Program-made: the position numbers and the translations under genes
Source of the DNA: Octopus vulgaris
Lineage: Eukaryota
Assembly (NCBI GenBank): GCA_951406725.2
Contig: OX597833.1
Coordinates: 33,976,001 to 34,040,000 of the forward strand
Length of the DNA: 64,000 bases
Direction of reading: 5' to 3'
The notes under the pieces: model-generated
Databases searched by the model: none
Told to the model about the DNA's origin: nothing
What the model saw: the letters and a program-made list of their open reading frames with translations, nothing else
Shown here: piece after piece, positions 1 through 62,402 of the stretch
Layout of the letters: the number at the start of each line of letters is the position of its first letter
Position numbering within the stretch: the first letter of the stretch is position 1

Positions 1-709
1 ATAAAAATGATATTTAAAATAATATAAAAATAAAGGTTAATGCACTGGTATAACGCTAAAAGTGCAAGAAGGTTATAGCCACGGAAATGAGGATTGGCTG
101 CAGACAGTGTTTCAATCGAGCCGGTACATGTATAAAAGAATAACAGTATACATAGACAAAAAACTGGTATCTGGTCAGATTATGGCATCTTCATATTTTT
201 ATATTGATATATCCTGAGGGTAGAGAGGAATGTTTCAGGAGTTTTGATCGCAAGAGATCAATAAAAGACCGGTTGAGGAATGTTCCTAATGGTTGTGATC
301 TATGGTGGTATTCCTCCGGAAGAGTTATAAGATAAGTCCGTATTATCGATATTAGCTAGCAGATTAAGGTCGGTCATCATAGATGAAAATCCAAAGCTAG
401 GTGAGAAGGAAGGAGGTGTGTATATATCCCTTACAGCTGCTTCAAAAATAGATACACAATTGTAATTCGTTGCTAGCAGTCATCAGCCGGCATTTTAGCG
501 GCAATCTCATGAAAAATGCTGGCTGCGGACTGTTTGCAGGGTATTGAACTAACCGTGCATCTGTTCTTGAAACAGCTGTAAGGGCTGCATGCACTACTTC
601 TTCCTTCTTATCATCCAGCTTGGATTTTACCTATGATGACCTACCTTAATCTACTAGCTAATATCAATAATACGGACTTACATTATAACATTTCCGGAGG
701 AATACTAAT

Positions 710-3700
710 TGTAGAGGCAAAAGCAGTCAGCGCCATATTGGATGACATCTCGCGACAGCCATTGCCATCTCCGAGACTGGAGCAAGACCTCACCTGCATC
801 CATTTGCCATGCGCGAGATCACAACGAGGCTCGCGGTGGCAAACTGTATATAAGGGCCAAACAGAAACAGATTCATTCTCTCCGCTTCTTCGCAGCAGCG
901 CTTACTGATCACACTTCACTGGCTGGGCCTGTCTGCATGTTGTACCTCCAGAGGGAATGTGCCTGCACTAACAGAGATACAACATGTCGCACCCAGCTTG
1001 AGATGGTTGCTGAGAGCAACACACTTCTCCTCTGCTGTGAAACTTGTAAATAAACCGGTTGTAAATTGCATTTGTGCTTAAAGACTTTTTTCTTCGCCTG
1101 CCGGAGCCAGAACTACACGAAGAACAAGATATAATGGGAGAAGGCGATATTCTCCCGATATCGTAAACCTTGCCTTCCATTATAAAATCGTGACCCCGTC
1201 GTAGAAAAGGTTTTTCGGCAGCCGCAAGCTTTATCGTATAGATGCTTCAACTGAATCACAGACTGCCGGTTTTTACTCGCTTCCAACTGATAAACACATG
1301 AATGACCACAATTCCAGCCGTCCATCAACTTCTGGCAAGCCGCCCATCAACTTCCAGCCATCGTTCCTGCCGCCAAATTTGAATTGCCCCACGTGGAAAC
1401 AGAATTTTACCGGTCGCATGCCATTTTCTGGCGACTTTTTCAACTGACAACAAAAAACTACAAAAAAAATTTTGGGGGGTACAAGCATACACATACAATT
1501 ACAGTGTTTTTTGGCATTTTTTTTAAATTTTCTTTCAGCACAAATACAGGTTTAGCGACGAAAGTTTTCTTGTCTGTGCATACAGCACACAATTCTATAA
1601 ATTTTGCTCGGAATTTTTTTTCTTCTCGCACACACGCTATTATTTCCAACACTTTTTGTCGGTCTTTTGGTCCATTTCTTTTCTCCTCTAACAGAAAAAA
1701 AAAACAAAAAATGAGTTTACCTAATCTTCCATCTTTCACTAGTGCCGTCACGCTTTGGTTCGCTCAGTTGAAGGCGCATTTTGCGGCACATGCTGTACCT
1801 TGGCAGCGACAATTAAATCTTCTCTTTTGTAGCATTCCTGAATCACTCGCTACTTTAGTCAGGGATCCCATCACTGATCCTCGTCCGGATGCGACTGATG
1901 ATGTAGTCAAATCCGAGGTTCTCCGACGGAACACTAAATCTGCGGTGTCTAAGTTTAAACAGCTAATGCAAGATGAGGATTAGGAGACAGGACGCCGTCT
2001 CAATTTTTACGGCATCTCCGCAAGCTCAGCGACATGACTGAGGACAACTCACTCTTACGAAAGCTTTTCTTCTCCCGGCTACCTCCCAATGTGCAAACTA
2101 TCTTAGCCACAGCGGTTGATACCAACACCGTGGATCAACTAGCTACTATGACTGATAATATTTTAGTGTTCGCTACCCAGCCAGCATCTCACTATGTCTG
2201 CTCTTTCTCGGAGTTTTCCTCCGCTGCATCTTCTTCATTACAGGATGATATTTTGGAGAAACTTGCTTCCTTAACACGTCGAATGGACGCGCATTGGGGA
2301 GGGCGCTCCAAGTCTTTGCGCCGTCGCAGTCGAAGCCGGTCCCGTTCGCACACGACCGATTCCTCTTCATCTAGTTCCGATCTTTGTTGGTACCACGCCA
2401 GGTATCAGCATAAAGCCCGTAAATGCATTCGGCCTTGTTCTTTCCAATCGTCGGAAAATGACCTGCGGAGGGTTTGAGCACGTCAAGCACTTCCGGCCAA
2501 TTATCCTCAAATCGTGCATTTTTTGTGAAGGACCGCCTGTCTAATGAGACGTTTATAGTTGACACGGGTTTTAGTTGCTCTATCTGGCTTTTGCCTCTCG
2601 CTACAGACAAGCCAAAGCGTTCAGAGATCACCTTGCACGCGGTCAATTGGTCTCCTATTGCGACTTATGGTCTAATTTCATTAAATATTGACATTAATCT
2701 TCGCCGGGATTTCTGGTGGATTTTTGTCATAGCTGATCTCCCACATCCTATTCTGGGTGCAGAGTTTTTGAACAATTTTAATCTATTGGTAGATGTCAGG
2801 CGACAGAGACTTGTCGATGGTTCTGCGTCTTTGTCTACACCTGCAAAGGTCACTACCAATGCGGTTCTCAGCCCTTCATTTTTTGTTGCCACTGCTGGTG
2901 GTGCATTTCATTCACTCTTAGCTTCCTTCCCAGAGCTGGTGGATCAGCTATTCCAAACGGCAAAACCTACTCACTCGACCCTCCACTATATTACCACCAC
3001 TGGGTCACCTGTCTTTTCATGGCTGCGGCGACTTGCCCCTGACAGTCTTTAGAAGGTTAGGTCCGAGTTTGAGCATATGCTCCAGCTTGGCCTTATTCGC
3101 CTCTCCACCACCCCTTGGACATCTCCCCTTCCTTTGGCACGAAAAGGGGATTCTGATTTTCGCCCGGTGGGGGATTATAGACGTTTGAATGCGGTCACTG
3201 TTCCCGATCGCTATCCCATACGAAATCTACAGGACTTCTCTCATTTGCATGGTTGTGCTATTTTTTCTAAGGTCGACCTCGTTCGTGCCTATCATCAAAT
3301 ACCAGTCAATCCTGATGACGTACCAAAAACTCGATCGGTGCTGTTTTACAGCACACCGTAGACAATCAGACTAAACCTTTGGCGTTTTTTTCTCGTCAAT
3401 TAAAGCCAGCTGAACGTCGGTACAGTAAGTTTGATCGTGAGCTCTTGACGATCTACCTGTCAATTCGTCATTTTCAAAATCAACTCGAGGGCCGAGATTT
3501 TGTGATTTATACTGATCACAAGCCTCTTATGTTTGTTCTGTCATCTAAATCGGACAAATATTCGCCTCGTGCTTTTGGCCACCTGGACTACATTTCCCAG
3601 TTCACGAGTGACATTCGGCACATACCTGGAACAGAGAACGTGCCTGCTGACGCATTCTCTCGTCTTGCTGTGTGCTCCCTTTCATCTCCTGCTGCAATCG

Positions 3701-5760
3701 ATTTAACTACCATTGCGCAGGATCAGCCAGCTCTGGACAGTTTGGATTTAGCTTCTACCAAGTTGTCCTCCCACTTCCGACTGCTGAAGGCACCATTCTT
3801 TGTGGCACAGCTACTGGTTCTCCCAGACCGTTTGTACCTGAGAACCACCAGCGCTCCGTTTTTGTTGCCTTGCATTCACTGTCATATCCTGGCGTCGCTG
3901 CCTCGGTGAAGCTTATTGCGGCTCGGGTTTTGTGGCCTAATATGCGCCGGATGATCATCGATTGGGCACGCTCTTGTGTAAAATGCCAGCGTTCTAAAAT
4001 CCACAGGCATATTTGCGCTCCCCTTGGACAGTTTTCTACTCCGGAGACTCGCTTTCGCCATGTCCACATTGATCTGGTTGGACCATGGCCAGTCGCAGTT
4101 TCTCTTACATATTGACATGCGTCGGTCGTTTCTCTCGTTGGCCAGAGGCCATTCCATTAGTGGACATTTCTGCTGAGTCGGTTGCTCGAGCTTTCGTTTC
4201 TAACAGGATTGCTCGCTTTGGTGTCCCAGCTAAAATAACCACTGATTGCGGACGCCAGTTCGAGGCTTGCCTATTTCGCGAATTATCACGAATCCTTGGA
4301 GTTCATCACATTCGTCCAACCAGCTACCATCCAGCCTCCAACGGGATGGTCGAACGTTTTCACAGGCAACTGAAGGCCGCCCTACGCACCACTTCTGATC
4401 CGCAATCTTGAACAGAATTTCTGCCTATCGTTCTTCTTGGTTGTCGCACTGCTGTTAAAGCAGACTTAGGTTTCTCCTCTACTGACCACCTTTACAGTAC
4501 CACCCTGGCACTCCCTGGTACAATGTTAGTGTCAGACAACTCATCGCCTCCTGATCCAACGTCGTATGCCACCAGACTTCGCTCGTATTTCTCAAGTCTT
4601 CCACCCATTCATCTGCGTGACTAATCTATTCCTTCTCATGTCCCATCAGACATTGACAAATGGATTCATGTTTTTGTTTGGGATGATTCTGTCAGAGGAC
4701 TTATCGTTTTTCCTTATAAGGGACCATTTTGTGTGCTATCGCACACACCCAAAACATTTAATCTCGACATCAATGGTCGGACAGAAACCGTGTCAGTCGA
4801 CAGACTTAAAAGGGCACATTTTGAGGTGCCCACACCCTTCGATGACACCCCAAACACGCCCACCTTTGATCCTTTACAACCACCTACACATCCACCTGCA
4901 TGTGCACCTTTGACCACACCATCACTTACACCTCCACCATCGTCGCGACTACCTAACACGAACAAACCCTATATTACCAGGACTGGCCGCACTGTGCATT
5001 GGCCCAAAAAACTCGCTAAAACTATTTATATCTGACAATTTCTTTTGTATTTCCTGTGACAGACAATTGCTTTTTTGTGTTACTGAACAGTTCCAATACT
5101 CTGCCATTGAACATTTTGTCAAATTTTGTGCATGCCAATTTATATTTCTTGCAAATATTTTTCTACATGACTTGTCACATTTTTGTACCACATCTTGTTG
5201 GTTGTGATTAGTTACCATCTTTGCTCTTTCTTTTGCCTGCTCCAATTATTCCGTTTTAGCACTGCCGCACTCAGTGGGGAGCCCTTGTAGCGACACAAGC
5301 AGTCAGCGCCATATTGGATGACATCTCGCGACAGCCATTGCCATCTCCGAGACTGGAGCAAGACCTCACCTGCATCCATTTGCCATGCGCGAGATCACAA
5401 CGAGGCTCGCGGTGGCAAACTGTATATAAGGGCCAAACAGAAACAGATTCATTCTCTCCGCTTCTTCGCAGCAGCGCTTACTGATCACTCTTCACTGGCT
5501 GGGCCTGTCTGCATGTTGTACCTCCAGAAGGAATGTGCCTGCACTAACAGAGATACAACACGACGCACCCAGCTTGAGATGGTTGCTGAGAGCAACACAC
5601 TTCTCCTCTGCTGTGAAACTTGTAAATAAACCGGTTGTAAATTGCATTTGTGCTTAAAGACTTTTTTCTTCGCCTGCCGGAGCCAGAACTACACGAAGAA
5701 CAAGATATAATGGGAGAAGGCGATATTCTCCCGATATCGTAAACCTTGCCTTCCATTATA
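710..5760 (+). mobile_element. Ty3/Gypsy LTR retrotransposon, defective (LTRs 710-1184 and 5286-5760)
   Basis: Two ~475-bp direct repeats starting TGTAG with about 7 differences. PBS-like TCGTGACCCCGTCG at 1188-1201 resembles the complement of the tRNA-Trp 3' end. Purine-rich tract at 5273-5281. Gag, protease (VDTG), RT (DYRRLN..PDRYP), RNase H (YTDHKPL, NVPADAFSR) and integrase (HIDLVGP, SNGMVERFH, GPF) occur in Gypsy order. Confidence 0.95.
1711..5035 (+). pseudogene. Gypsy gag-pol with stops, frameshifts and an internal RT/RNase H deletion
   Basis: Fragmented ORFs 1384-1983, 2034-2477, 2474-3052, 3077-3361, 3379-3909, 3672-4115, 4085-4411 and 4733-5035. RT jumps from ...DVPKT to RNase H with no YxDD motif. 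Confidence 0.9.
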
Positions 5761-5920
5761 CCACCATATATCACAACCATTAGGAACATTCCTCAACCAG
5801 TCTTTTATTAATCTCTTGCGATCAAATCTCCTGAAGCATTCTTCTCTACCCTCAGGATATATCAATATATAAGTATATAGATGTCATAATCTGACCAGAT
5901 ACCAGTTTTTTGCCTATCTA

Positions 5921-6067
<147 letters not shown>

Positions 6068-6304: not shown

Positions 6305-6335
<31 letters not shown>

Positions 6336-6336
<1 letters not shown>

Positions 6337-6822
6337 ACATTATTGGTGAATTGAAGAAATGGAGCTGAACGCAGATTGAACAGAAATCGTTTTATTTCAT
6401 TCTACACGTGTTTCGAAAGGCACAAATTACCAAAATCCGATGGAATAATGGGACCATATTGTGTCTTTCTCTTCAGGAAGAAAATAGGAAATCCGTTGGA
6501 AAAACAAAAACAGAACAGAGGCGGAGCAAAAACAAATCGAACTATGCTCCTAAGAGCCCATGGCTCTTAGAAATCGAACTATGCTCCTAAGAGCCCATGG
6601 GCTCTTAGGAGCATAGTTCGATTTGTTTTTGCTCCGCCTCTGTTCTGTTTTTGTTTTTCCAACGGATTTCCTATTTTCTTCCTGAAGAGAAAGACACAAT
6701 ATGGTCCCATTATTCCATCGGATTTTGGTAATTTGTGCCTTTCGAAACACGTGTAGAATGAAATAAAACGATTTCTGTTCAATCTGCGTTCAGCTCCATT
6801 TCTTCAATTCACCAATAATGTT
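6336..6822. repeat. Near-perfect palindrome (~225-bp arms) beside (TA)n, PLE pseudo-LTR-like
   Basis: The same ORFs appear on both strands (6376-6570 + and 6579-6782 -). Centre is GCCCATGGGC with a ~37-nt local duplication. The element continues to ~6975, then (TA)n. Confidence 0.95.
6672..6765 (+). ncRNA. Type I hammerhead ribozyme motif (mirror copy 6393-6486 on -)
   Basis: TTC-CTGAAGA(6682-6688)-GAAAGACACAA..TTGTGCCTTTC-GAAA(6744-6747)-CACGTG-TA-GAA. Canonical core, paired stem II, palindromic stem III, GUA cleavage triplet. Confidence 0.85.
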
Positions 6823-7195
6823 CTAATTTCAATTATCCGCACCAACGCACGGTTGCAACACCATATGGTTGTACCTCCAACCGTGCTGTTTTACTGCTGT
6901 GATTTTTGCTACTAAGGTATCGGTTAAACTTTTGATTAATCTACTACAAGATTATTCATCTTTCTATTTCACATAATATATATATATATATATATATATA
7001 TACATTCGTGCGCGCGCGCTCACACACACATGTATGTTTGTATGAGCGTATGGAAATGTTTGTGAGATTAATTCTTGTTTGTTTCACATAAATTAACATT
7101 TGACTCCACCAGCCTCTCAACGCAAAGCTGCGCTACAAGGTAATATGCATGTATACATGTGTAAGTATATGTATGTTTATATGTATGTATATACT

Positions 7196-8947: not shown

Positions 8948-9237
8948 CTGTACAACCCACGATTTTGTGACACACTGCTCACCGCCAACCAAAGCGTTGT
9001 ACGCATCGGCCATGTATTGTGGATTCATCATCGACAAACAGAGTGTTTTCGCCGAGTGCAATACAGCCTACGCAGACCAGGCGCGGCAGTACTTTGATTC
9101 CTGCATGTTTGATGTGTGCGCCTACGAATCGGACCAAAATGCAATCACGAAGAGCTTATGCAGCAACATCGAAGCATTTGCTCAGCTGTGTCTGGAGTAT
9201 GGTTATACGGTTGACTGGAGAGACAAGTATTTCTGCC
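8948..9237 (+). CDS. Exon of VWD/C8/TIL/EGF (zonadhesin/FCGBP-like) gene: C8 domain
   Basis: ACAACAG acceptor, C|GTATGT donor. Encodes C..FAEC..YFDSCMFDVC..LCSNIEAFAQLC..VDWRDKYFC. Phase 2 in, phase 1 out. Confidence 0.9.
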
Positions 9238-10396
9238 GTATGTATTAGCAAGTTGATTAAAATTGTTTGGCAATTTTGTGTGATTGTTTAATGTTGTAAA
9301 TTCCTGAGTATTTTCTCAATCACACACCGACATATTTAGACTAGAGCATGTTCTCAGATGTTGTAGTTCTAACGTTTCGCCAGTTGTACCTTCCGGTCTT
9401 TCCATGTACTTGTATTCTGTAATGTTCAAGGAATTTCAAACCGACTCCTTATTTAATCTAAGGGGGAAAAGGTTTATTGTTTTCATCCCACAGTTCACAC
9501 CAGGGATATTTTCCAATTAGTTATTCTCCTACCTGAATATGTTGCTTGAACTAGAGCAGTGACCCTAAGGAGAATGAGGCAGTGAATATAAGCATTGAAT
9601 ACTTGTTAAGTTTACTAGTTTTGGCAGTGGGCATGAGTTCTAAGCCTGAGTCAGTTAATATACACTCATGTTCATTGAGTTAAAACAGCTCTAACAATGA
9701 AATTGGGAGAGAGAGGGGGAGAGAGGGAGAGAGACAGACAGAGCATATGACATTCAGTTCTAGGAGCTGAGTGTGAAGGTGACATCGAACCAAAACAGGT
9801 GGAAGATTAACACCCCTCTACACATAAGCACATAAAAGCACACGGACACACTCACAAATACACACGTATATTCAGATATAAGTATATACATACCTACACA
9901 CATGGGGTGGCTGTCAGCTTGGAGACGAGTATGACCCTCATTAACAAATTATCTTATTTGTTAAAGACAATGGCTGTCAGCAATACCCATGCTGAAATTT
10001 CAAGTCAATAACACTCTGTACTTCTCTATTAAGACTCTCACCTACAAAACCAGGAACAACCGAATGCAAAATCTCCAGTATCGCAATGTGGCAGTCGTTA
10101 TTTCAAAATTACCTTCTCCTAAAGGGATATCTAAACAAAGACTACGGGTCTGTCATTCCGATGTGTTAGATGACCGTTTATTCTACTGAGTTCATCCTTC
10201 CTTTGAAAGATTTTGATTTTTCGTCCTGCAGGGTGACCATCGAAAACAACCCTCCCTACCAAGCAGGCTTGGTAGGGTTGCCGGTTTAGTGGATGAAAGC
10301 CCTACTAGGAGGTAGGTTGTACTGAGTTACATGTTACCAATAGCACATGTTACCAATAGCACTAACAGTGACCGGGCATAAACATATACATATACA

Positions 10397-10557
10397 GGCG
10401 CAGACGTAGCTGTGTGGTAAGAAGCTTGCTTTCCAACCACATGATTCCGGGTTCAGTCCCACTGTGTGGCACCTTGGGCAAGTAATTTTTACTATAGCCT
10501 CGGGCCGACCAAATTCTTGTGAAGAGATTTGGTTGATGGAAACTGAAAGAAGCTGAC

Positions 10558-10560
<3 letters not shown>
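10397..10560 (+). mobile_element. tRNA-derived SINE, 5' half (split by PLE insertion)
   Basis: GGCGCAGACGTAGCTGTGTGGTAAG..GGTTCAGTCCC head, same family as the intact copy at 53503-53925. Confidence 0.85.
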
Positions 10561-10600
<40 letters not shown>

Positions 10601-10605
<5 letters not shown>

Positions 10606-12505
10606 TAAAGAGTGAAAAAACGACAGAAGGCTTAAATGTTAAAAAATATATATATTTGCGTCAATATGTCTGAAGAATATTAGAAAATTTTTTAAACAAA
10701 TTTTTTTTCCTTTATAATGACATAATTTTTAAAGAAAGACCGGTTTCGCATTTAGCTTTTCAAATTTCTTGTGACGTTATGTTTATGTTTAATAGAGTTA
10801 TCCTTGTGTTTAAGCTCCGGAGAGTTCTAAATAAGGGAAGGTAGTGGGTGATTTCTTCCGGTGTAAGGGAGATAATCGCTTAAAAATTTTTTTCCTTTCC
10901 CTTAATGTGAATTTCTGTGTATCAGTATGTTCGGATGGTTGAGTCTGGGTTTGTACTTTTCAATGAAGAATGTTTCCTTGTTCAGTCTCATTTGTGTTGA
11001 TGATCCGAAAGCACATTGGTAAAATGGAAAGATTAAAAATTGTGGTAGTAGTTGCTTTGCTCATTTCTCAATGTGCTCACTAAAAGGTATCATTCTATAT
11101 TCTGGGAATGCAATCTGTTGTCGATGCAGTGTGCATCTACGTCTGAGTGATAGTCCCGTGGAACCCACGTAGTCTTGGTGGCAGCCCGAGCATTTTATGA
11201 CATAAATTATGTTTTCAGAGGCACAAGTAAAGTTAGATTTGATCTTGAATTTCTGTCCCTCTTTAAAGAGGAATTCTGATCCTTCTAGCAGGTTAGGACA
11301 TGTTGCACAGTTCGATCTACCACATTTTTTACTTTTGCATCCGTAATTTCAGAAGACAATCTTGCCTTTGTGAGAATCTTTTTAAGTGATTTAGGCTGTT
11401 TGTAGCTTTTAATGATTTGGTGTATGTTTAGAATTTCCTTTAATTTGGGGTTTTTATGAAGTATTGGTAAATTCTGGGTGATGATGGTGAAGGCTTCTTT
11501 GTTTCTGGGGTTGTATGTAGATATGTAAGGTAGTATTTTCGGGGAAGGTGTGTTGTTGTGTTGAACTTTTCTTAAAGTTTCTATGTTGATTTCTGTTGCA
11601 CGTCTGATCCCATCCTCTATGAGTTGAGCTGGGTAATGTCTATCAATTAGGGTGTTTTTGAGTTCTTGCAGTCTAAAGTTCCTGGTATTTTGTTCTGACA
11701 CTATTGTGCATATCCTTCTTGCAAGGTTGAAGGGGATGTTTGTTTTAGTGTGTCTTGGGTGGCATGAATTAAAGAGAAGGTATTGTTTGGCGTCTGTGGC
11801 TTTGTAGAAAATGTCTGTTTCTATTTTAAGGTTAATTTTTTTAATTAGTATATCCAAGAACGGGAGCTCCTTTTGGTTGTATTCCATTGTGAACTGTATA
11901 TTTGGGTTTATGTTGTTCAATAGGTTTTTAAATTTTAGGAGTTTATCTGTGTTTTCATTCCAGAGAATAAAACAATCGTCTAAGAATCGTTTCCAGTTCT
12001 CTTTTATGTATTGAGAGAGGGGATTTCCAAAGATTGATAAAGATTCCTGGTAAATGATTATTTCCATGTATCCCATTGTTAAGTTCGCAATGACTGGTGC
12101 TGCCCTTGTACCCATAGCAATTCCGGATTTTTGACGGTAAAATGTATTGTCAAACATGAAGTGGTTATTGTGTAGGATGAATTCAATTGATTTAGTAATG
12201 AATTCTTTACTGATCCTTTTTGGTATTTCTTCCGGAAATTGGTCTAACCAGAGCTGTATTGCCTCCAGTCCATAATTATGAGGTATACTGGTATACAAGT
12301 TGACTACATCAAATGAAACCAGGATTGTTTCTTCCTTGGCTTTTTTTGGAAGGTGGTTTAACATATCTAAGTCATCTCTGATATGGCTATCGATATGTTT
12401 AAGGAAGGGTTTCAGGAGGATGTCCATAAGTAGACTTAGTCTGTGTGTTTCACAGGTTGGGCCAGCTACAATGGGTCGTAGTTTTAGGTCCCCCGGGTTA
12501 GGTGT
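10601..12505 (-). mobile_element. Penelope-like element (Neptune-like), 5'-truncated: RT plus GIY-YIG endonuclease
   Basis: ORF 11285-12427 has SFDVVNLYT, GIAMGT, RFLDD, LPFLD and SCHP. Frameshifted continuation CGRSNCATC..NIIYVIKCSGC..YVGST..HRQQI runs to ~10935. Flanked by (TA)n. Confidence 0.92.
10732..10770 (-). ncRNA. Minimal HHR, U3:A8 variant, in PLE 3' pseudo-LTR
   Basis: Minus strand reads AAGAAA-T-TTGAAAA-GC TAAAT GC-GAAA-CCGG-TC-TTTCTT: 6-bp stem I, GUC triplet. Confidence 0.7.
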
Positions 12506-12544
12506 GTGTATATATATATATATATATATTTATTTATTTATTTA

Positions 12545-12815
12545 TATATACGACAGCTTCTTTCAGTCATGTGTGTGTGCGTGTGCGTGTGTATGTGTTT
12601 GCGTCTGTGTTTGTCCCCCACCATCGCTTGACATCCGATGTTGGTGTGTTTATGTCCCTGTAACTTAGCGGTTCGGCAAAAGTGACCGATAGATTAAGTA
12701 CTAGGCTTACAAAGAATAAGTCCTGGGGTCGATTTGTTCGACTAAAGGCTGTACTCCAGCATGGCTGCAGTTAAATAACGGAAACAAGTAAAAGAATAAA
12801 AGAATAAAAGAATAT
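12545..12815 (+). mobile_element. tRNA-derived SINE, 3' half
   Basis: GTAACTTAGCGGTTCGGCAAAA..CCAGCATGGCTGCAG..GTAAAAGAATAAAAGA tail, same family as 53503-53925. Confidence 0.85.
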
Positions 12816-13022
12816 TGACATACATACATACATACATACATACATACATACATACATACATACATACATACATGCATACAGACCGACAGACAGACACTAG
12901 GCTACGCGCCTTCACATGAGACATGTAGTGGTACAACTCCAGCCAAGATTACTGAACAACTTTTGCTTCTTCAGTTTTTCAACGATCTATAAATAATTTC
13001 ATATTTCTTGTTTTTACCTTAG

Positions 13023-13225
13023 CAATGAACTGTCCTACTGGACAGCTTTATAGTTTAGACGTTTCTGGATGTCCAGCAACTTGCTTGGAACCAAATGCCC
13101 CTGAAAAGTGTGCTCTTCCCGAAAGAGAGGGTTGCAAGTGCAAGCCAGGGAAGATTCTGAGCGGCAAAGAATGTGTTTATATCTCCGACTGCGGCTGTTT
13201 CCAAGAGAATGGAGAGTATATTCCG
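13023..13225 (+). CDS. Exon: TIL domain
   Basis: CCTTAG acceptor, CCG|GTAGG donor. Encodes MNCPTGQLY..GCPATC..C..EGCKCKPG..SGKECV..DCGC. Phase 1 in, phase 0 out. Confidence 0.92.
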
Positions 13226-13435
13226 GTAGGTGTGATCAAATTGCGATAAAATAGTTTGTCTTTTTTTTGTTTTTTTTATGCTTAGTCACAAACCTGATAA
13301 AGCAAACTTATTTTTCAAAGGCGTTCAACCCGTGATCAAATCATATTTGTGGTTAAACGTCAAAAACTAAGACGCTAGGACGCAATCAAGTTGTTATCGT
13401 TTAGTCCCGGCTATGCTCTATGTGTGCTTGTGTGT

Positions 13436-13473
<38 letters not shown>

Positions 13474-13977
13474 ATGTGTGTGTATATGTGTGTGTGTGTG
13501 CATGTGTGCGTGTGTGTGTCTCCTTTCCGCGAAACACGGGTGTTTCTACCTTTAGATTTTCGAATTTTAAACATGCAATGCTCTGTCATTGCCAAAGACT
13601 AGGACTCCAGGCTCCCTAAAGCCACATCCCATTTTAAGTACGAGAAAATTATGAACATCTAACTGAGTTCAGTAACTCAACAAGGAATAGAAATGGCATC
13701 GTATACATGGCTTTCTCAGAGTTTACTACCACTCTAAATTGTAGGTATTTGACGTCTATAACAAAGAGCTGACAGGCACGATTCCATATGGGTGGTTTAT
13801 TGCACGAAGCACAGGCATGATAATATGGTTAACAAGTTCGCTTCGCAACCATGTAGTTCTGAGGTTTAGAATCCATGGCTTTGGTACATTTTACAACTGT
13901 TTTTAACCCAAGATTTAAGTTGACCAATAATTTGTGTGTGGAATTTAGTAGATGGAAACTGTGCAGAGACTCAACAA

Positions 13978-14052
<75 letters not shown>

Positions 14053-14154
14053 CATGTGTGTGTGTGTGTGTGTGTGTGCGTGCATGCGTGCGTGCGCGTG
14101 TGTGTGTATGTATGTATGTATGTATGTATGTATGTATGTATGTATGTATGTATA

Positions 14155-14905
14155 TGATAAGTTCATGTATCTCAGCAACACACTCTCCAGATCTGTGAAA
14201 ATTGACGATGAAATCGACACACGCATCGCTAAGTGGAGCTCAGCATTCGGGCGGTTACGTGAATCATTGTGGAAGAGGAGAGGCATATGACTGACCACAA
14301 GTTGAAAGTGTACAAAGCAGGTCTAATACCAACGCAACTATACGCTTGCGAGATTTGGACGGTTTACGAACTGACCAATAAAGCTGTTGAAAATCACCTG
14401 GCAAGTCAAGATCCCAGACACGAAGGGTTTCTCTGGAGCTGATCTACCAAGCATCTACACACTGTTGAGGAGAGAGCAAGTCGGTTGAATAGGCCACTTT
14501 GTTTGAATGCCTAACACACGACCCTCCAAAAGACTGTTTTACAAGGAATGGCAGAAAGCAAGTGCACACAAGGTGGACAGAAACAGCGCTTCAAGGATAC
14601 ACTGAAAGCATCACTGGACAACTTTGAGATTAATTCCGACACCTGAAAAATGCAAAGCACGAGACCACCCCGCCTGGTGAAGCTGCACCAACAGCGGTTC
14701 CACCTCCAACGAACAAAACAAGATTGCAGAGACACAAAGAAAACGTGAACTGCGCAAGTCCAGAGCCAACCTCTCACCTTCAGTCCTAGCAGACCACCAG
14801 TGCCCGACCTGTAGCAAAGCTTCGGTCACAGCCGGACACACTGTGTCCCGTCTTCTTCTTCAATGTGACGTCCTTGTTTATCGTCGGCAACGACAGACGA
14901 ACAGA
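14155..14905 (+). mobile_element. RTE-clade LINE 3' fragment (degenerate)
   Basis: FMYLSNTLSRSVKIDDEIDTRIAK.SSAFGRL..TKLKVYKA..LYACEIWTVY, GGQKQRFKDTLKASL and a C-terminal CPTC. Confidence 0.85.
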
Positions 14906-14924
14906 TAATGCATACGTGTGTGTG

Positions 14925-14959
<35 letters not shown>

Positions 14960-15119
14960 ACATAGTCTTTTCTTAACTACATAATTATTTCTAATTACCT
15001 TTTTTTAACGTTACCAAATTCATTTTTATCAACATTTCTAAGCTTTCGCAGCTCCATCACTAAGGTGTGAAGTGATGTTGGCTTCTATGCTACCCCTTTC
15101 ATAGCAGCTAGCTTATATT

Positions 15120-15324
15120 TTTATCTTTTATCTTTTAATGGTTTCAGTCATTCGACTGCAGCCATGCTAGGGCACTGCCTTGGAGAATTTTTAGTCGAAT
15201 GAATCGACCCCAGTACTTAATTTTGTTAATTCTGGTACTTATTCTATCGGCCTTTTTCCGAACCTCTAAATTACGGAACATAAACACGCCAACACCGGTT
15301 GTCAAGCAGTGGCGGGGGACACAG

Positions 15325-15362
<38 letters not shown>

Positions 15363-15525
15363 ACACACACACACAACGGGCTTCTTTCAGTTTTCCATCT
15401 GCCAAATCAGCTCACAATGCTTTGGTCGGCCCGAGGCTATAGCAAAAGACACTTGCCCAATGTGCCACACAGTAGGACTGAACCTGGAACCATGGTTGGG
15501 AAGCATACAGCCACGCCTGTGCCTA
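15120..15525 (-). mobile_element. tRNA-derived SINE
   Basis: Reverse complement of the 53503-53925 family, with an internal (CA)n. Confidence 0.8.
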
Positions 15526-15997
15526 TAAATTTATATTTATACAGAATTTACGCCTATAAATATGTTAATGCTGACATTTTGTAGAACCTCAGAGACTAGC
15601 ACTGGGTTTCGATGCCTGGATGCGGCACTTTGAGCAAGTGTCTTTTATCAAAGCCTCAGCCCGACAAAAATCAAAGCCTTGTTTGTGAAAGTTGGCAACT
15701 GGAAACTATGTGGAAGCTCTTTTGAGGGAGGTAGACCAAATCTGCAACCTGCTTGAAACACTTTCACTTTGTGTTTTAATGGGTGCCTTTAGCAGAATCT
15801 GTGCTGTTTGCAAGCATTTGCACTAGATATCCAGTCAGAGGAAGCTGGTCTTTTGCCCCACTTCCTCCCACCAGTCTCTAAAATCCTACAAAAAAGCCAT
15901 AAGTGTTACCTTTCCTCTTCTTACAAAACCAATTATTTCACTGTTTATCGTGTGTTTTTCTTTTTTTCCCTTATTTCTTATCTCTGCCATTTCACAG

Positions 15998-16199
15998 CTA
16001 GGTAAAAGCCTTACGACTAAAGATTGCAGTTCGATCCTTCTCTGCAAGAAGAAAAACGGTCATCCGGAAATTGAAGTCTCCAAAATGAAGTGTGCAGAAC
16101 ATGCCGAGTGCGTCGTAGTCGACGGACAACCTTTGTGCCAATGTTTGGAGAACTACAAAGGCAACGGATCTGAAAAATGTATGCTTGAACAGAGAGTCA
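15998..16199 (+). CDS. Exon: TILa/EGF-like segment
   Basis: TTTCACAG acceptor, A|GTAAGT donor. Encodes LGKSLTTKDCS..CAEHAECVVVDGQPLCQCLENYKGNGSEKC. Phase 0 in, phase 1 out. Confidence 0.9.
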
Positions 16200-17051
16200 G
16201 TAAGTCCAAAATGTTGTTTTCACAATTACTAGATCCTCGTTTTAGATATTACACAATTCAATGACATCATTCGCTTGATGAACGTAATATAATATATCTA
16301 ATACAAAAAGTGTTTCAAAAGCTAATTAAAATAAATATGCGGTGGGAATAAAATACGACATTAGTCAATGATTAAATGTTGGTTTCTTTTTAATCTTCCG
16401 AAAGTACGGGAGACAAATCTGGACTTGTTTCGGAGGGGCTATGGTTCGCTGATGAGATCAGAATAATATAAAACATATCCAGAGTTGGCTTTTGTAGTTG
16501 CTCAGAAAATTAAAAATAATATTATTCAATGACTAATATAGTTCTTAATTTTTATTTCTCATTACATATTCTTAGTTTGCTCTATGCATTAGGTATATTA
16601 ACAATAGCTTAATTAAAAGATCATTATTTAGAGACGCCACTACATGAAAGAACAATAGTTAAGTGAATATTAACATATTAAATGTAGTAAGCATTGAAAA
16701 AACGTAATTTATGCAGTGAGAAAAAGACTCCTATTAACAGAGACGTAGTTTCGTTCGATCGATCAACCGTACACGTTCCACTGACTTGTACTGCCGACCG
16801 AACGGCTGATCAAACCAAATTAGTATGTTTGTTCGTTTATGTCTGATAAACAAGGATTATATAGTTCTTGCGTTGTATCTGTGGTTCTCGTTATATTCTT
16901 CGAACGAAACAAAAGGCATTTTGTTGGACTCACAACTTTGATATAACATCTCATTATCGACTTGACAGTCAGATATCCCAGCACAATACGTTTTCATTCT
17001 TCCCTCCATTGAATCCTCTTTCATTTGGGCTTGAATTGTTTGACTAAATAT

Positions 17052-17099
<48 letters not shown>

Positions 17100-17380
17100 A
17101 TATGGGTATTATATTATACACATACATACAGAGAGAGAGAAAGAGAGAGAAGGGGAGAGGGAAACGAAGAGGGAAAGAAAGCCAGAGATAAGCCTTCTCA
17201 CAAAACACATTCGTTGGGAGTCGAGACATTTCTTTACTGAGAATGCTCTACAACCAATATGAACTTAATTGGAACTATGGAAAATATATAAGTGAAATAA
17301 ATAAAAGAAAAAAATTAATCTCGAGTATACTCATATCAGGAAAATATATGTATATTAAGCTTATGGTTAGCTTTCCAGGA

Positions 17381-17420
17381 CAACTAAATGTTTCCGCGAC
17401 TACTCACTTCATCAGCCGGG
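17381..17420 (-). ncRNA. Degenerate minimal HHR motif
   Basis: Minus strand CTGATGA-A-GTGA GTAG TCGC-G-GAAA-CATT-TA. Core intact, stems I and III weak. Confidence 0.4.
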
Positions 17421-21157: not shown

Positions 21158-21190
<33 letters not shown>

Positions 21191-21332
21191 GCAAATAAGA
21201 AAATGGAGAAGCACATTAGTTGGTTCATCAACTTTAGGATATTAAAATGTTGACTTATTTATTTATCAAAACGACAACCATACATACATACATACATACA
21301 TACATACATACATACATACATACATACATACA

Positions 21333-21364
<32 letters not shown>

Positions 21365-21618: not shown

Positions 21619-21663
<45 letters not shown>

Positions 21664-43774: not shown

Positions 43775-44279
43775 CGTGCGTGTGTGTGTGTTTGTGTGTG
43801 TGTTCGTGCGTGTGTGTGTGTTTGTGTGTGTGTTCGTGCGTGTGTGTGTGTGTGTGTGTGCGTGTGTGTATAAGATTTTCGGGATCCGATAGAATAAAGT
43901 ATTTAAATAACAAAGGCACCAAGGTTGAGTCGGGCAAAGTGCACCTATGCACTAACAGTGTGTACAGACGCTCACGTACTTACTAAAGTAAATACAGATT
44001 TGTCCTTCCGGTTATGCATACATTCACAAGTATGGGGCAAATGCACATCGTATATGCAAAGTCACACGGGAGTACACTTCACCACATGTTCCACCGTCCA
44101 TTGTAGGCGCAAGATTATCTTAATATGAGATCACCATGTCGCGCACATATGGTTGTGATGCATGTGCCTGGTGTACCCTTATCAGACGGGTAGTCATGAT
44201 GGGTATACAACACAGGGATGGTTCTGAGTGTGATGAAGTATAAACAATAATACACCATGTAAAAAGCCGTTTTCTTTTG

Positions 44280-44407
44280 GTGAATTAAGAGCAAAATTTA
44301 ACATTTAACATTTAGGATTTTCCACACAAATACCGAGATGAGATGGTCAACACGTATTTGTGTGGAAAATTCTAAATGTTAAATGTTAAATTTGACTCTT
44401 AATTCAC
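44280..44407. repeat. Short fold-back (~55-bp arms)
   Basis: GTGAATTAAGAG..TTTTCCACACAAATAC vs GTATTTGTGTGGAAAA..CTCTTAATTCAC. Confidence 0.9.
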
Positions 44408-44473
44408 TTGAAAAATAAAGAACGCGTCTAAAGCAGCTGTAGCAAACCTCAGTCCATCTATTGTATTGTTTAT

Positions 44474-48971: not shown

Positions 48972-48976
<5 letters not shown>

Positions 48977-49894
48977 AAATATTGAATTTCTAAATCTCTC
49001 GTAGAGACATGTACGGTGGTGGGGCGATAGAATGGTTGTATACTGTCAATCTAACAAGAACGTGACAGTAGGGGGTACACCACCGCTGTATAGCCCTAGG
49101 AAGCATCGAACGCCTCCTGATAGCTTTGACACATTTTTTCTCTGTGTCCTTATATACATATACGAAGGGGAGACAAACACCCCCGGCTGCCGGAACTGCA
49201 TCTAGGGACACCGTGTTTCAGGATCGTTGTCCTTCATCGGCCTAGAGTAGCAGACACCGGTCAGCTGGTGATATTTGCCTCGACTTCGTAATTGTATATA
49301 CCTATATTCAGTCTGCTACTCTAGGCCGATGAAGGACAACGATCCTGAAACACGGTGTCCCTAGATGCAGTTCCGGCAGCCGGGGGTGTTTGTCTCCCCT
49401 TCGTATATGTATATAAGGACACAGGGAAAAAATGTGTCAAAGCTATCAGGAGGCGTTCGATGCTTCCTTGGGCTATACAGCGGTGGTGTACCCCCTACTG
49501 TCACGTTCTTGTTAGATTGACAGTATACAACCATTCTATCGCCCCACCACCGTACATGTCTCTACGAGAGATTTAGAAATTCAATATTTCTTATTTTGAT
49601 AATCAGTGAATAAACTTCACTGAATATAGGTATATACAATTACGAAGTCGAGGCAAATATCACCAGCTGACCGGTGTCTGCTACTCTAGGCCGATGAAGG
49701 ACAACGATCCTGAAACACGGTGTCCCTAGATGCAGTTCCGGCAGCCGGGGGTGTTTGTCTCCCCTTCGTATATGTATATAAGGACACGGGGAAAATGTGT
49801 CAAAGCTATCAGGAGGCGTTCGATGCTTCCTTGGGCTATACAGCGGTGGTGTACCCCCTACTGTCACGTTTTTGTTTGATTGACAGTATACAAC

Positions 49895-49902
<8 letters not shown>
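48972..49902. mobile_element. Non-coding inverted-plus-tandem repeat (one - unit, two + units) in (TA)n; PLE pseudo-LTR/retrozyme-like
   Basis: 48972-49311 (-), 49311-49594 (+) and 49620-49902 (+) are near-identical, with (TA)n on both sides. Confidence 0.92.
49313..49370 (+). ncRNA. Type I HHR (U4C variant); copies at 49678-49735 (+) and 49196-49253 (-)
   Basis: CTGC-TAC-TCTAGG-CCGATGA-AGGA CAACGA TCCT-GAAA-CAC G GTG-TC-CCTAGA-T-GCAG. All three stems pair; GUC triplet. Confidence 0.85.
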
Positions 49903-52736: not shown

Positions 52737-52758
52737 GCACTCGTATATTTGCCAAATT

Positions 52759-53035
52759 GAAGTGTACTGTTTTATATATCCATTAAACCGATCTTACCAA
52801 TCGGTTTCGCACTATGGGTTCAGCGGAGTGTTAGGTAGCAGTCCAATTATGTAACCCTGCGCTATTCAGAGATGGCAGTTATGAAATGAAATATGACCAT
52901 ATTTTATTCTATAACTGCCATCTCTGAAGAGAGCATGGTTACATAATCGCTCTTGTACCTAACACTCCGCTAAATCCCTAGTGCGAAACCGACTGGTAAG
53001 ATCAGCCGTAATGGATATATAATACTGTACACTTC
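52759..53035. repeat. Fold-back element (~135-bp arms)
   Basis: GAAGTGTAC..TTCAGAGATGGCAGTTAT vs ATAACTGCCATCTCTGAA..GTACACTTC, centre at ~52896. Confidence 0.9.
52920..53002 (+). ncRNA. Type I HHR motif
   Basis: ATCT-CTGAAGA-GAGCA..TGC-GAAA-CCGACTGG-TA-AGAT. Canonical core, GUA triplet. Confidence 0.75.
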
Positions 53036-53502
53036 TATTAATGCATGCATGCATACATGCATACATACATACATACATGCATACATACATACATACATAC
53101 ATACATACATACATACATACAAATGTCTCTTGGTTTGCATGGCTTCATTTTAGCACAGTTTTCGTTTTTGTACACTACGCATACAGAATAAGCACTTTGT
53201 CGTTTCTTCGTTTCTATTCCCCTTTCATCTTACTTTTACTCTACATCTTCAACAATGAAGTAGACCGCACTAAACTAATGCTTAAGTTACTGTTTCTTTT
53301 TAAATATCATAAATATTTTCCACACTGAATATCAGAGATTCAAATGTTAATAAAGTCGATTTTAGAAATCATTATCATTCTTGGTATATTAAATTAATTT
53401 CAAAACTGAAGAGTGTTCGACAGAAACTACCTAATATATTATTACAAACGAAATAATAGTGAGAATAATTTTTAGAGAAATTGCTCGATCTTCAGTAACA
53501 TA

Positions 53503-54227: not shown

Positions 54228-54299
54228 AAAGGAGAAGGAAAGATCCCGAGAAGGGAAGACAGAGGGAAAAAAATTGCTGGCGGTGCTCACGAGGTCACA

Positions 54300-54843
54300 G
54301 GCAAGGAAAAATTATAAAAAGGCAGAATGCTAAATTGAAGGTAAATTTTAATGAAAATGGGCGTATAGAAAATTTTGAAAACTTAACAAAATATATATAT
54401 ATATATATTAATTCAAAACGGTTTTCGTCACAATGTGACTTTTCAAGAATTGTAAGGTGAAAAGAAAATTTTTTTTATGATTGAGGAGGGAGAAAAAAGA
54501 AAATTACGTTGTTTTTTCGGTTTTCGTCCCAATGTGACTTTTCAAGAATTGTAAGGTGAAAAGAAAAAAATTTTTATGATTGAGGAGGGGGAAAAAAGAA
54601 AATTACATTGTTTTTTACAAAAAAACAAAAAAAAACAATGTAATATTCTTTTTTTCCCCCTCCTCAATCATAAAATTTTTTTTTCTTTTCACCTTACAAT
54701 TCTTGAAAAGTCACATTGTGACGAAAACCGGTTTGAATTAATATATATATATTTTGTTAATTCTTCAAAATTTTCCATACACCCATTTTCATTAATATTT
54801 ACCTTCAATTTAGCATTCTGCCTTTTTATAATTTTTCCTTGCC
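54300..54843. repeat. Fold-back element with ~100-bp internal tandem duplication
   Basis: GGCAAGGAAAATTATAAAAAGGCAGAATGCTAAATTGAAGG vs CCTTCAATTTAGCATTCTGCCTTTTTATAATTTTTCCTTGCC. 54419-54515 is repeated at 54518-54615. Confidence 0.92.
54698..54739 (+). ncRNA. Minimal HHR, U3:A8 variant; copies at 54410-54451 (-) and 54518-54550 (-, partial)
   Basis: AATTC-TTGAAAA-GTCAC ATT GTGAC-GAAA-ACCGGT-TT-GAATT. Perfect 5-bp stems I and II, palindromic stem III. Confidence 0.82.
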
Positions 54844-55027
54844 TATCATTTCTCCACGTGCGGTCAACACAACCCCACCATTTATTGATTTATATATATA
54901 TACATACATACATACATACATACATACATACATACATACATACATGCATACATACATATACATATACATACATATATATATATATACATATACAATATAC
55001 ATATACATATCTATATATACACACACA

Positions 55028-60973: not shown

Positions 60974-62031
60974 TTTAAAAAGAAACAACACCAATAACAG
61001 TCACTCAAATTAATCACAGAAGAAAGTAAATAAATAAATAGCAATTTTACATGACAAGCTGGACAGAATGTATTAAGTATTTAGAAGTACAGCTATCACC
61101 TTGTAACAATCTTAACAAAATCCAGTCAGCCGAAAAACTGGAAATATGTCTACAAATATTTATTGACAAAATTCTTAACTCTATAACTGAAAAAGTTCCT
61201 ATTTCAATCTAGATAAAAACACTGATAATGATAAAGATGATAACTATGATAAGGCATGGGGGAACCAAGAATTAAAACAACCAGGAAAAAAGATGATCCG
61301 ATCATTGGAAAGAAAAATGAAATATCATCATACAGTTTCTAACTATGAAAAATATAAAGGATATTTTTAAAAGTTTAAAAGGCAAATAAAACAGGTCAAA
61401 AAGTTTGACTTGTTTTATACGTATGATTCATCCATCAGACCAAAATCTCCAAAAGCAAATGAACCACAATACAGAGACAATCTCAAATATTCACAGAATT
61501 CTTTTATTAATTTCATTTAACAGACAAATCATTAGAAACTGAGAACCTATTCCCCTCAATCTAAATGTGGATTTTTCTCTTATTATGAAACAAGTTATTT
61601 TCAGCTGAAGAGGAGTCAAAAAGGAACGGTTACAGGTACAGATGAAGTAATTATTTTAATCAATGAAATATGGATTGTAGAACGAAAAATAGAATTAGAT
61701 TTATTTTATACTTAAATTATATCTAGGTATGTGGTAATTATTTTCTCGTGCCTTAACAATAGCTAAACCAAATAAACAAAAAACATTTTCTACAGAACAT
61801 AACTCTCACTTAGCATTGAATCGATATTTCAAAATTACCTTGGTCAGCAAAAACAATGTTGAAACTGTATCTAAGGGAGATAACTCTTATTGAAAGTAAT
61901 GTAATTTCTGTTTTTCGTGTGCAAAGATACAGCACAATGGTAACCACTGATTTATATTTGGCCGTACAATAATTCAGGTAATACAGTTCTATATTTAAGA
62001 GATGAGGAATTATGTACATTATTTACATCAT

Positions 62032-62094
62032 TTATGGCGTAGTGGTTAAGAGTACGGGCTACTAACCCCACGATTCCGAGTTCGATTTCAAGCA
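62032..62094 (+). mobile_element. tRNA-like SINE head fragment
   Basis: TGGCGTAGTGGTTAAG (A box) .. GAGTTCGATTTC (B box); no intact acceptor stem. Confidence 0.6.
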
Positions 62095-62402
62095 GTTGTT
62101 GTTAACACAACGTTTTGGTTGATATATCCTCCAGTCTTCATCAGGTGTCTTGCGGAATTTTCGAACCTGGGTTCACATTACTAAGGTATGTTACAATGTT
62201 ATTATTATTATATTATAATAATAACATCGTAAAATTATCGTTAATATTATATAATAATAATAACATCAAAAAATACCTTAGGAATGTGAACCCAGGCTCA
62301 AAATTTCCCCAAGACACCTGATGAAGGCTGGAGGGTATATCAACCGAAACGTTGTGTTAGCAACAACAAGATGAGGACAAATATCCGTCAAATGTAAATA
62401 AT
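62095..62402. repeat. Fold-back element (~100-bp arms, TAT/AAT core)
   Basis: GTTAACACAACG..TTCATCAGGTGTCTTG..CCTGGGTTCACATT vs AATGTGAACCCAGG..CAAGACACCTGATGAA..CGTTGTGTTAGC. Confidence 0.9.
62313..62358 (+). ncRNA. Minimal type I HHR, canonical core
   Basis: GACAC-CTGATGA-A-GGCTG GAGGGTATAT CAACC-GAAA-CG-TT-GTGTT. The mirror copy at 62103-62149 has GAAA mutated to AAAA. Confidence 0.85.

What the first reader, a model, noticed from the sequence alone, without database searches (positions are those of the whole stretch)
152..62402. About ten unrelated long palindromes, nearly all abutting (TA)n: pseudo-LTR fold-backs as a dsRNA source
Seen: fold-backs at 152-5917, 6336-6822, 21893-22541, 32817-33095, 33915-37085, 37445-37790, 44280-44407, 48972-49594, 52759-53035, 54300-54843 and 62095-62367. 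Arm divergence ranges from none to high, so they formed repeatedly over time. No TIR/TSD hallmarks of MITEs were seen, and most contain HHRs. Established: PLE insertions often carry an inverted 5'-truncated pseudo-LTR and prefer microsatellites. Inference: these are ORF-less inverted pseudo-LTR pairs. Those in introns of the + strand gene would form long hairpins in pre-mRNA, which are substrates for ADAR (very active in coleoids) or Dicer, and the hairpin would also mask the ribozyme.
Basis: partly seen in the sequence, partly recalled or inferred. Interest (0 to 1): 0.7.

Follow-up and report, generated by a model that had tools for sequence, protein, structure and literature searches.

The report
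Mirror-image Penelope retrotransposon insertion scars
The eleven DNA palindromes are real and each is built from a different common repeat, five of them tied to the protein gene of Penelope-like jumping genes; they are likely head-to-head scars of a known insertion route, and whether their predicted RNA hairpins feed RNA editing at this locus is untested.

Summary
All 11 fold-backs are real (0 in 10 shuffles), and each arm belongs to its own dispersed repeat family. Five families link to Penelope-like (PLE) RT/GIY-YIG coding sequence; others are ORF-less hammerhead repeats (a 365-bp tandem unit, a tRNA-headed repeat). Genomic copies pair head-to-head (96 of 297) and almost never tail-to-tail (3 of 297). 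In six families 69 of 73 pairs have one short and one tailed end, none two tailed ends. This is the published PLE 'inverted 5'-truncated pLTR plus tail' structure, not a MITE. Corrections: 152-5917 is a ~720-bp palindrome split by a 5-kb LTR retrotransposon; 33915-37085 encloses PLE RT remnants; 7 of 11 lie near (TA)n; 6 of 11 keep a full hammerhead motif; only three are placed in introns. The dsRNA/ADAR claim is untested here: no usable RNA reads, and no editing scar in these 11. One fold-back elsewhere in the genome carries 44 A>G at 93 A. Fold-backs occur about once per 9 kb (44 in 400 kb sampled). The scan reported this structure before on other DNA of this genome.

The parts
93..709 (.). 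P1 left arm (antisense, with tail to ~93) plus apex (~506) and start of right arm; old family; only the 3' half of a hammerhead motif is left
710..5760 (+). LTR retrotransposon (Ty3/Gypsy-type by domain order, recalled) with broken ORFs, inserted into the right arm of P1
   Evidence: LTRs 98.5% alike; RVT_1, Integrase_H2C2, rve
5761..5922 (+). rest of P1 right arm (short end), (TA)n 6 bp away
6333..6975 (.). P2: young PLE pLTR fold-back; short end at 6333, tailed end at 6975, (TA)n at both; hammerhead motifs 6682-6755 (+) and 6403-6476 (-)
8976..29858 (+). host gene, mapped exons: C8 8976, TIL-like 13025, EGF-like 16067, 20490, 25308-25414, VWD 26873-27126 and 29538-29858; further VWD exons 36-42 kb upstream of the window
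   Evidence: spliced contig in run X2
21641..22546 (.). P3: fold-back, tailed end left, short end at (TATG)n; intronic; family linked to PLE coding sequence in 2 of 3 long loci; no hammerhead found
32751..33098 (.). P4: fold-back of a ~210-bp ORF-less repeat with a G3-C8 hammerhead-core variant (32980-33015, +); tail left, short end at (TA)n
33915..37190 (.). P5: inverted 3' copy plus 5'-truncated PLE body with RT fragments at 35135-36118 (+); a P11-family copy and (TA)n sit in the spacer (34622-34844, -)
37445..37790 (.). P6: fold-back of the 3' end of a ~770-bp ORF-less repeat with a CTGATGA half-core; PLE link by anatomy only
44208..44472 (.). P7: old, decayed fold-back; family has a CTGAAGA hammerhead motif; one copy lies 377 bp downstream of a PLE fragment
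48972..49902 (.). P8: inverted copy plus tandem of a 365-bp hammerhead unit (non-LTR-retrozyme-like); motifs at 49326, 49691 (+) and 49207 (-); (TA)n at both ends
52755..53042 (.). P9: PLE pLTR fold-back with a long-stem hammerhead motif (52924-52992, +); both ends short
54299..54891 (.). P10: PLE pLTR fold-back with a U3-A8 hammerhead variant (54703-54730 +; two copies on -); short end left, 47-bp tail right, then microsatellite
61982..62402 (.). P11: fold-back of a repeat with a tRNA-like head, (AAT)n and a hammerhead motif (62318-62353, +); tailed end at 61982

Best explanation
The palindromes are head-to-head pairs of the 3' ends of eleven dispersed repeat families, five tied to Penelope-like RT/GIY-YIG coding sequence and the rest ORF-less repeats that likely ride on those enzymes, and each pair is likely the by-product of a single insertion into an AT-rich or (TA)n target. 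Shown: repeat membership, ORF linkage, head-to-head polarity, variable apex, and one short plus one tailed outer end. Inferred: a PLE protein nicks both target strands, each 3'-OH primes reverse transcription at one of the two internal start sites that define the tail, both cDNAs stop early, and they are joined at their truncated 5' ends. If transcribed, the arms would fold into 55-360-bp hairpins that sequester the hammerhead and would suit ADAR. That would be an incidental consequence, not a selected function, and it is not shown for these copies.
For: P2 arm matches the repeat flanking an uninterrupted 899-aa ORF in a 3624-bp tandem, whose nearest Atlas clusters (0.95-0.98) carry GIY-YIG/HTH_animal/RVT_1 on part of their members. 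PLE coding sequence lies upstream in sense in 18 of 30 (P2), 13 of 30 (P10, one being the window's own locus) and 7 of 30 (P9) loci, against 0-1 downstream in sense; also P3 and P5. Antisense partner upstream in 96 of 297 copies, downstream in 3 of 297 (four insertions are counted twice). One short plus one tailed end in 69 of 73 pairs, short-short 4, tailed-tailed 0. Literature: inverted 5'-truncated copy, a tail at one end and (TA)n bias (PMC8557442); head-to-head as the usual form (PMC3846280); two internal RT start sites that define the tail, both strands cut and extended, predicted dimer (PMC11167929); opposite-strand hammerhead pairs 100-700 bp apart (PMC4209133).
Against: No ORF link above background for P1 (0 of 30), P4, P8, P11 (1 of 30 each) or P6 (1 of 30, and 2 of 30 after extension); P7 rests on one copy. 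Pfam gave the 899-aa ORF no relevant family, so its PLE label rests on the Atlas lead and on motifs read by eye (recalled). P3 shows 0 of 28 close head-to-head partners. P9 in the window has two short ends. The P8 and P11 queries reached past the short end, which biases the sense arm towards 'tailed'. The edited hairpin L379 implies that at least some fold-backs were copied from an RNA that already held both arms, which twin priming does not explain.
Confidence: 0.8

Rival explanations
1. Same elements, different route: the inverted arm arises by self-priming or template fold-back of one nascent strand (proposed on an antisense template in PMC3846280), or by re-mobilisation of an RNA that already contains both arms.
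For: Short perfect hairpins and duplications at apices (P2, P3). Complex tandem and inverted stacks in the P8 family. L379 is edited on both arms of one strand, so a two-armed RNA was its template.
Against: Does not by itself predict the 69-of-73 short-plus-tail pairing with no tailed-tailed pair. Apices differ between copies of one family, which argues against spread of a fixed hairpin unit.
Confidence: 0.25
2. The palindromes are MITEs or foldback DNA transposons with long TIRs and TA target duplications hidden in microsatellite.
For: Hairpin shape, many genomic copies and (TA)n flanks.
Against: Only 96 of 297 copies have an inverted partner; the ends are asymmetric; apices vary; arms continue upstream into RT/GIY-YIG ORFs.
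Confidence: 0.02
3. The palindromes are fold-back chimeras of library preparation or assembly.
For: Young, near-perfect copies (P2, P8) could not be checked with long reads.
Against: Most arm pairs differ by 7-27%. An LTR element and other repeats inserted into arms or spacers afterwards. Contigs of runs X3 and X4 (one study, two organism labels) span the P3 apex, 22150-22283.
Confidence: 0.02
4. The intronic fold-backs are selected regulatory hairpins (ADAR recruitment, endo-siRNA source or ribozyme switch) for the VWD/C8/EGF gene.
For: P1-P3 lie between mapped exons, and the gene is spliced across P3's neighbouring intron in run X2. P3's apex is shared by two organism labels.
Against: Density in the window (10 per 64 kb) is close to the flanks (17 per 200 kb) and to a genome sample (44 per 400 kb). 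Arm mismatches are balanced, G-T versus A-C, as in neutral decay.
Confidence: 0.05

Closest known systems
Insertion units of EN+ Penelope-like elements: pLTR, adjacent inverted 5'-truncated copy and optional tail (PMC8557442 Fig. 2 legend; PMC3846280 Pen2a)
   Same: Head-to-head inverted truncated copy, tail at one end only, microsatellite targets that hide TSDs, hammerhead motif in the pLTR, C-terminal GIY-YIG after RT.
   Different: Here most insertions are so truncated that only pLTR arms remain. Tails reach ~150-190 bp in P2 and P3, against the 30-40 bp described. The short-plus-tail pairing is counted here (69 of 73). Clade not determined (no tree built).
Non-LTR retrozymes (bioRxiv 10.64898/2026.07.22.740005, part 1 of 5 read)
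   Same: P8 is an ORF-less tandem unit of 365 bp with a type I hammerhead motif in each unit (30 of 30 loci).
   Different: P8 also forms PLE-type inverted stacks with two fixed 3' ends at (TA)n. Self-cleavage and circular RNA not tested.
Minimal PLE hammerheads and core variants (PMC4209133)
   Same: Type I motifs with a short palindromic stem III, an extra base before stem II, and a U3-A8 core variant (P10).
   Different: P4 has G3-C8 (described as a partial-rescue mutant in PMC11167929; not seen in the parts of PMC4209133 that I read). P2, P9, P1 and P7 have stems II of 55-95 nt. P6 lacks the downstream GAAA.
tRNA-derived, hammerhead-bearing SINE-like repeats such as schistosome SM-alpha (recalled, no call)
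   Same: P11 family has an A/B-box-like head, a simple-repeat linker and a hammerhead motif.
   Different: It inserts with the PLE-type inverted, tailed ends; ARAGORN calls no tRNA in the window.
Repeat-derived ADAR substrates: palindromic Harbinger in frog, Penelope in lizard (PMC5625713)
   Same: Self-folding repeats are strong hyper-editing targets; Penelope is named there as a massively edited repeat in lizard; octopus has exceptional hyper-editing and dsRNA potential (4.4e-3).
   Different: That study assigned no repeat class to octopus for lack of annotation. The fold-backs here come from the insertion process, not from a palindromic consensus.

Membership tests
EN+ Penelope-like element insertions | Arm is the repeat flanking an RT plus GIY-YIG ORF | tested here: met
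   Met for P2, P9, P10, P5 and P3; one copy only for P7.
EN+ Penelope-like element insertions | ORF link for P1, P4, P6, P8, P11 | tested here: not met
   0-1 of 30 loci each; P6 2 of 30 after extension. These are filed as non-autonomous or unresolved, not as fragments of coding PLEs.
EN+ Penelope-like element insertions | Inverted 5'-truncated copy, head-to-head | tested here: met
   96 of 297 versus 3 of 297 tail-to-tail; none among 28 P3 and 13 P7 copies within 1.5 kb.
EN+ Penelope-like element insertions | Tail at one end only | tested here: met
   69 of 73 pairs in six families; not counted for P1, P3, P5, P6, P7.
EN+ Penelope-like element insertions | Hammerhead motif in the pLTR | tested here: met
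   Family counts: P2 30/30, P8 30/30, P4 20/30, P10 20/30, P9 10/29, P11 10/30, P7 1/15; none found for P3; half-motifs or decayed motifs for P1 and P6.
EN+ Penelope-like element insertions | RT falls in a PLE clade by phylogeny | not tested
   No reference set on hand; Atlas lead only; Pfam gave nothing relevant.
Hammerhead ribozyme | Self-cleavage | not testable with these tools
   Motif only; minimal PLE motifs cleave poorly and as dimers (PMC4209133).
MITE / foldback DNA transposon | Every copy has TIRs with symmetric ends and a TSD | tested here: not met
   flanks of seven units show microsatellite or no clear duplication.
Non-LTR retrozyme (P8) | ORF-less tandem units, each with a type I hammerhead | tested here: met
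   365-bp period, tandem copies in many of 30 loci.
ADAR substrate | A-to-I editing of the arms in RNA | not testable with these tools
   Only assembled contigs were available.
ADAR substrate | Editing scar fixed in DNA (one-strand A>G in both arms) | tested here: not met
   Balanced mismatches in all 11, and no marked excess against family majority in the 10 compared; met for L379 elsewhere in the genome.

The most novel reading that the evidence does not exclude
PLE insertion leaves some 300,000 ready-made hairpins in this genome (about one per 9 kb). They are the unassigned main source of the octopus's exceptional dsRNA load and repeat hyper-editing, the analogue of frog Harbinger or primate Alu pairs, and edited hairpin RNAs are now and then written back into germline DNA.
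Probability: 0.3. Interest if true: 0.65.

Novelty: new member of a known kind. Interest (0 to 1): 0.3.

Why it matters
The structure itself is a described feature of Penelope-like elements, so the locus is ordinary. Two points have wider use. First, the strict pairing of one short and one tailed end gives a countable constraint on how inverted PLE insertions form, a step that PMC8557442 calls undefined. Second, PMC5625713 found octopus exceptional in hyper-editing and dsRNA potential without naming the responsible repeat; short-spacer fold-backs alone give 0.55% of sampled 50-bp loci a near-perfect partner, the same order as the published 0.44% (another method, and possibly another species). 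Intersecting fold-backs with existing hyper-editing clusters would settle whether they are that source.

Tried and rejected
Rfam at E<=1 gave only hairpin and microsatellite noise, no hammerhead. A first strict motif scan missed long-stem and variant cores. Pfam did not name the 899-aa ORF. ARAGORN found no tRNA. Run search: no RNA holder listed on record; contigs cannot show editing, and no RNA contig specific to an intronic arm was listed; this is no evidence either way. Read support for the apices of P4-P11, and the 3' extent of the gene, remain open. No exon of the host gene was found beyond 29858 out to 100 kb past the window by tblastn with seven exon queries, so P4-P11 are unplaced. ORF links were sought and not found for P1 and P6. 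Assigning sampled inverted pairs to PLEs was weak: 5 of 36 carried a hammerhead or a window family, and 11 of 34 re-examined were neighbouring copies of very common dispersed repeats, so the genome-wide PLE share is not established. Of 455 inverted alignments, 11 were polarised at p<0.001; on inspection only L379 was a clean A>G case, the others reflected microsatellite composition or common repeats, or could not be called. Literature searches for octopus+hammerhead+Penelope, Penelope+A-to-I+editing+inverted+octopus and ADAR+hypermutation+retrotransposon+Penelope listed no paper on these fold-backs; the library is incomplete. Supplement S1 of PMC8557442 was not read and may already name some of these families.
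Full report
Observation. A self-BLAST of the window finds all eleven inverted repeats near the stated coordinates, with arm identities from 73% to 97%; ten block-shuffled windows give none. I number them P1-P11 from left to right. Their arms are unrelated to each other. Two were misdescribed. P1 is a palindrome of about 720 bp split by a 5-kb LTR retrotransposon (LTRs 709-1184 and 5285-5760; RT and integrase domains). P5 encloses PLE-like RT fragments at 35135-36118 and a copy of the P11 family. A (TA)6+ run lies within 50 bp of one end in 7 of 11, any listed microsatellite in 9 of 11. In 264 kb around and including the window, 20 of 27 fold-backs have a microsatellite on exactly one side, against 13% of random intervals with one on either side.

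What the arms are. Each arm was searched in the window's genome. First-look candidates ranged from 14 (P7) to 2523 (P11); the best 30 loci were kept (15 for P7), so the samples favour close, full-length matches. The P2 arm is over 99% identical to the repeat that separates 3624-bp tandem units holding an uninterrupted 899-aa ORF. That ORF has RT and C-terminal GIY-YIG motifs (read by eye, recalled) and its nearest Atlas clusters carry GIY-YIG, HTH_animal or RVT_1 on part of their members; Pfam did not name it. PLE-like coding sequence lies upstream in sense in 18 of 30 P2, 13 of 30 P10 and 7 of 30 P9 loci, and in 0-2 of 30 for the rest. Longer fetches link P3 (2 of 3 loci) and, by one copy, P7. 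P8 is a 365-bp tandem hammerhead unit. P11 has a tRNA-like head, (AAT)n and a hammerhead motif. P4 is a ~210-bp repeat, and P6 a ~770-bp repeat without ORF link. P1 is old and unlinked.

Hammerheads. Rfam finds none. Motif scans and family alignments show canonical cores in P2, P9 and P11, CCGATGA in P8, G3-C8 in P4 and U3-A8 in P10. Six of eleven window copies keep a full motif in at least one arm, always in the head-to-head polarity. None was tested for cleavage.

Anatomy across copies. Of 297 non-window copies, 96 have an antisense partner upstream and 3 downstream (four insertions appear twice). The distance to the partner varies from zero to over 1 kb, so the apex is not fixed. Six families show two discrete 3' ends; after removing duplicates, 69 of 73 inverted pairs combine one short and one tailed end, 4 two short ends, none two tailed ends. 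The P8 and P11 queries bias the sense arm towards the longer end; for P2, P4, P9 and P10, which lack that bias, the count is 35 of 37. Eight of the eleven window units show the same asymmetry. This excludes MITEs and matches the PLE structure in PMC8557442 (passages) and PMC3846280 (passages). PMC4209133 (parts 1-2 of 4) already notes opposite-strand hammerhead pairs 100-700 bp apart.

Mechanism. PMC11167929 (parts 1-2 of 4) shows that a PLE protein cuts and extends both strands of AT-rich DNA and starts reverse transcription at two internal sites that bound the tail; it also predicts a dimer. I infer that one insertion primes once at each site, one on each strand, and that the two truncated cDNAs join head-to-head. 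This step is inference (about 0.55); self-priming, as proposed in PMC3846280, or re-copying of an existing fold-back RNA remain rivals. The ORF-less families likely borrow PLE enzymes, in line with bioRxiv 10.64898/2026.07.22.740005 (part 1 of 5).

Reality of the DNA. Contigs of runs X3 and X4 (one study, two organism labels, kind not on record) span the P3 apex. Later insertions into P1 and P5 and the arm divergence also argue against artefact. Young copies were not checked with long reads.

The dsRNA claim. The host gene is a + strand VWD/C8/TIL/EGF gene; one contig of run X2 joins exons 25308-25414 and 26873-27126. P1, P2 and P3 fall between mapped exons (P1 and P2 by domain order across a ~45-kb gap); no exon was found after 29858, so P4-P11 are unplaced. 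P2 and P3 fold into near-perfect hairpins, as any palindrome would. Editing could not be tested in RNA. A DNA-only test, taken from earlier notes of this scan, found balanced G-T and A-C mismatches in all eleven and no marked A>G excess against family majority in ten (largest P5, 11 A>G versus 5 T>C). One fold-back elsewhere, L379:2628-2910, has 47 G-T against 1 A-C mismatches, and 44 A>G at 93 A in both arms, favoured after A or T (37 of 60) over C or G (6 of 31). It belongs to another family with a U3-A8 motif (read by eye). This likely records ADAR editing of a fold-back RNA before reverse transcription, so the process occurs in this genome but is rare in my sample (1 clear case among 455 partly redundant alignments).

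Scale. Forty evenly chosen 10-kb stretches hold 44 fold-backs (one per 9 kb, 4.1% of bases; 22 with a microsatellite on one side, 1 on both), so the window is only mildly richer than average. In a test modelled on PMC5625713 (passages), 53 of 9594 tiles (0.55%) had a near-perfect reverse partner in a short-spacer fold-back, 36 (0.38%) in other inverted pairs and 120 (1.25%) in simple repeats. That paper reports 0.44% for octopus with no repeat class assigned, and heavy editing of Penelope in lizard. PMC9068888 (passages) reports repeat-directed editing in squid without mentioning Penelope in the main text; PMC9989829 (passages) adds nothing specific. Against the bold reading, only 5 of 36 sampled near-perfect pairs could be tied to a hammerhead or a window family, and 11 of 34 were ordinary neighbouring copies of common repeats.

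Verdict. The fold-backs are real and are new members of a known kind: PLE-type head-to-head insertion scars. Earlier agents reached the same reading on other pieces of this genome; I had reached it before that look-up and count those notes as no evidence. Interest 0.3; the genome-wide dsRNA-source case is the part worth testing.

Noticed in passing
L379:2628-2910 (G000:C1, near 70.16 Mb): Hammerhead-family fold-back with 44 A>G at 93 A on one strand in both arms and an ADAR-like 5' neighbour bias; likely an edited RNA copied into DNA, with the ribozyme core destroyed.
   Followed up: partly
window 710-5760: LTR retrotransposon with 98.5% identical LTRs but broken, partly deleted ORFs, inserted in one arm of P1; a related gag-like remnant with a 246-bp tandem lies at 55960-57039.
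   Followed up: partly
window 32980-33015: Natural G3-C8 hammerhead core variant, in 20 of 30 family copies of a ~210-bp repeat whose 5' end is fairly fixed just upstream of the motif.
   Followed up: partly
window 61982-62402 and 34622-34844: tRNA-headed, (AAT)n-linked hammerhead repeat with PLE-type inverted ends: a candidate SINE moved by PLE enzymes.
   Followed up: partly
window 37445-37790; L398-L427: ~770-bp non-coding repeat bounded by (TA)n at both ends, with CTGATGA but no downstream GAAA in the family majority; 4300 first-look candidates.
   Followed up: partly
window 11004-12529 (-), 38000-39679 (+), 40016-41123 (+), 55245-55625 (-): Four further truncated PLE-like coding remnants in the window.
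   Followed up: no
window 8976-29858 and 36-42 kb upstream: VWD-C8-TIL-EGF-EGF-EGF-VWD gene (FCGBP/zonadhesin-like, recalled); no C8 exon found after the second VWD.
   Followed up: partly
window 18834-19220, 24404-25009, 30326-30649: Mariner-like transposase fragments, judged by eye from the ORF list.
   Followed up: no
L031+L032 (G000:C1:119.51-119.53 Mb): Tandem array of three full and one partial near-identical PLE units, two with an uninterrupted 899-aa ORF, next to an inverted pair of another PLE family.
   Followed up: partly
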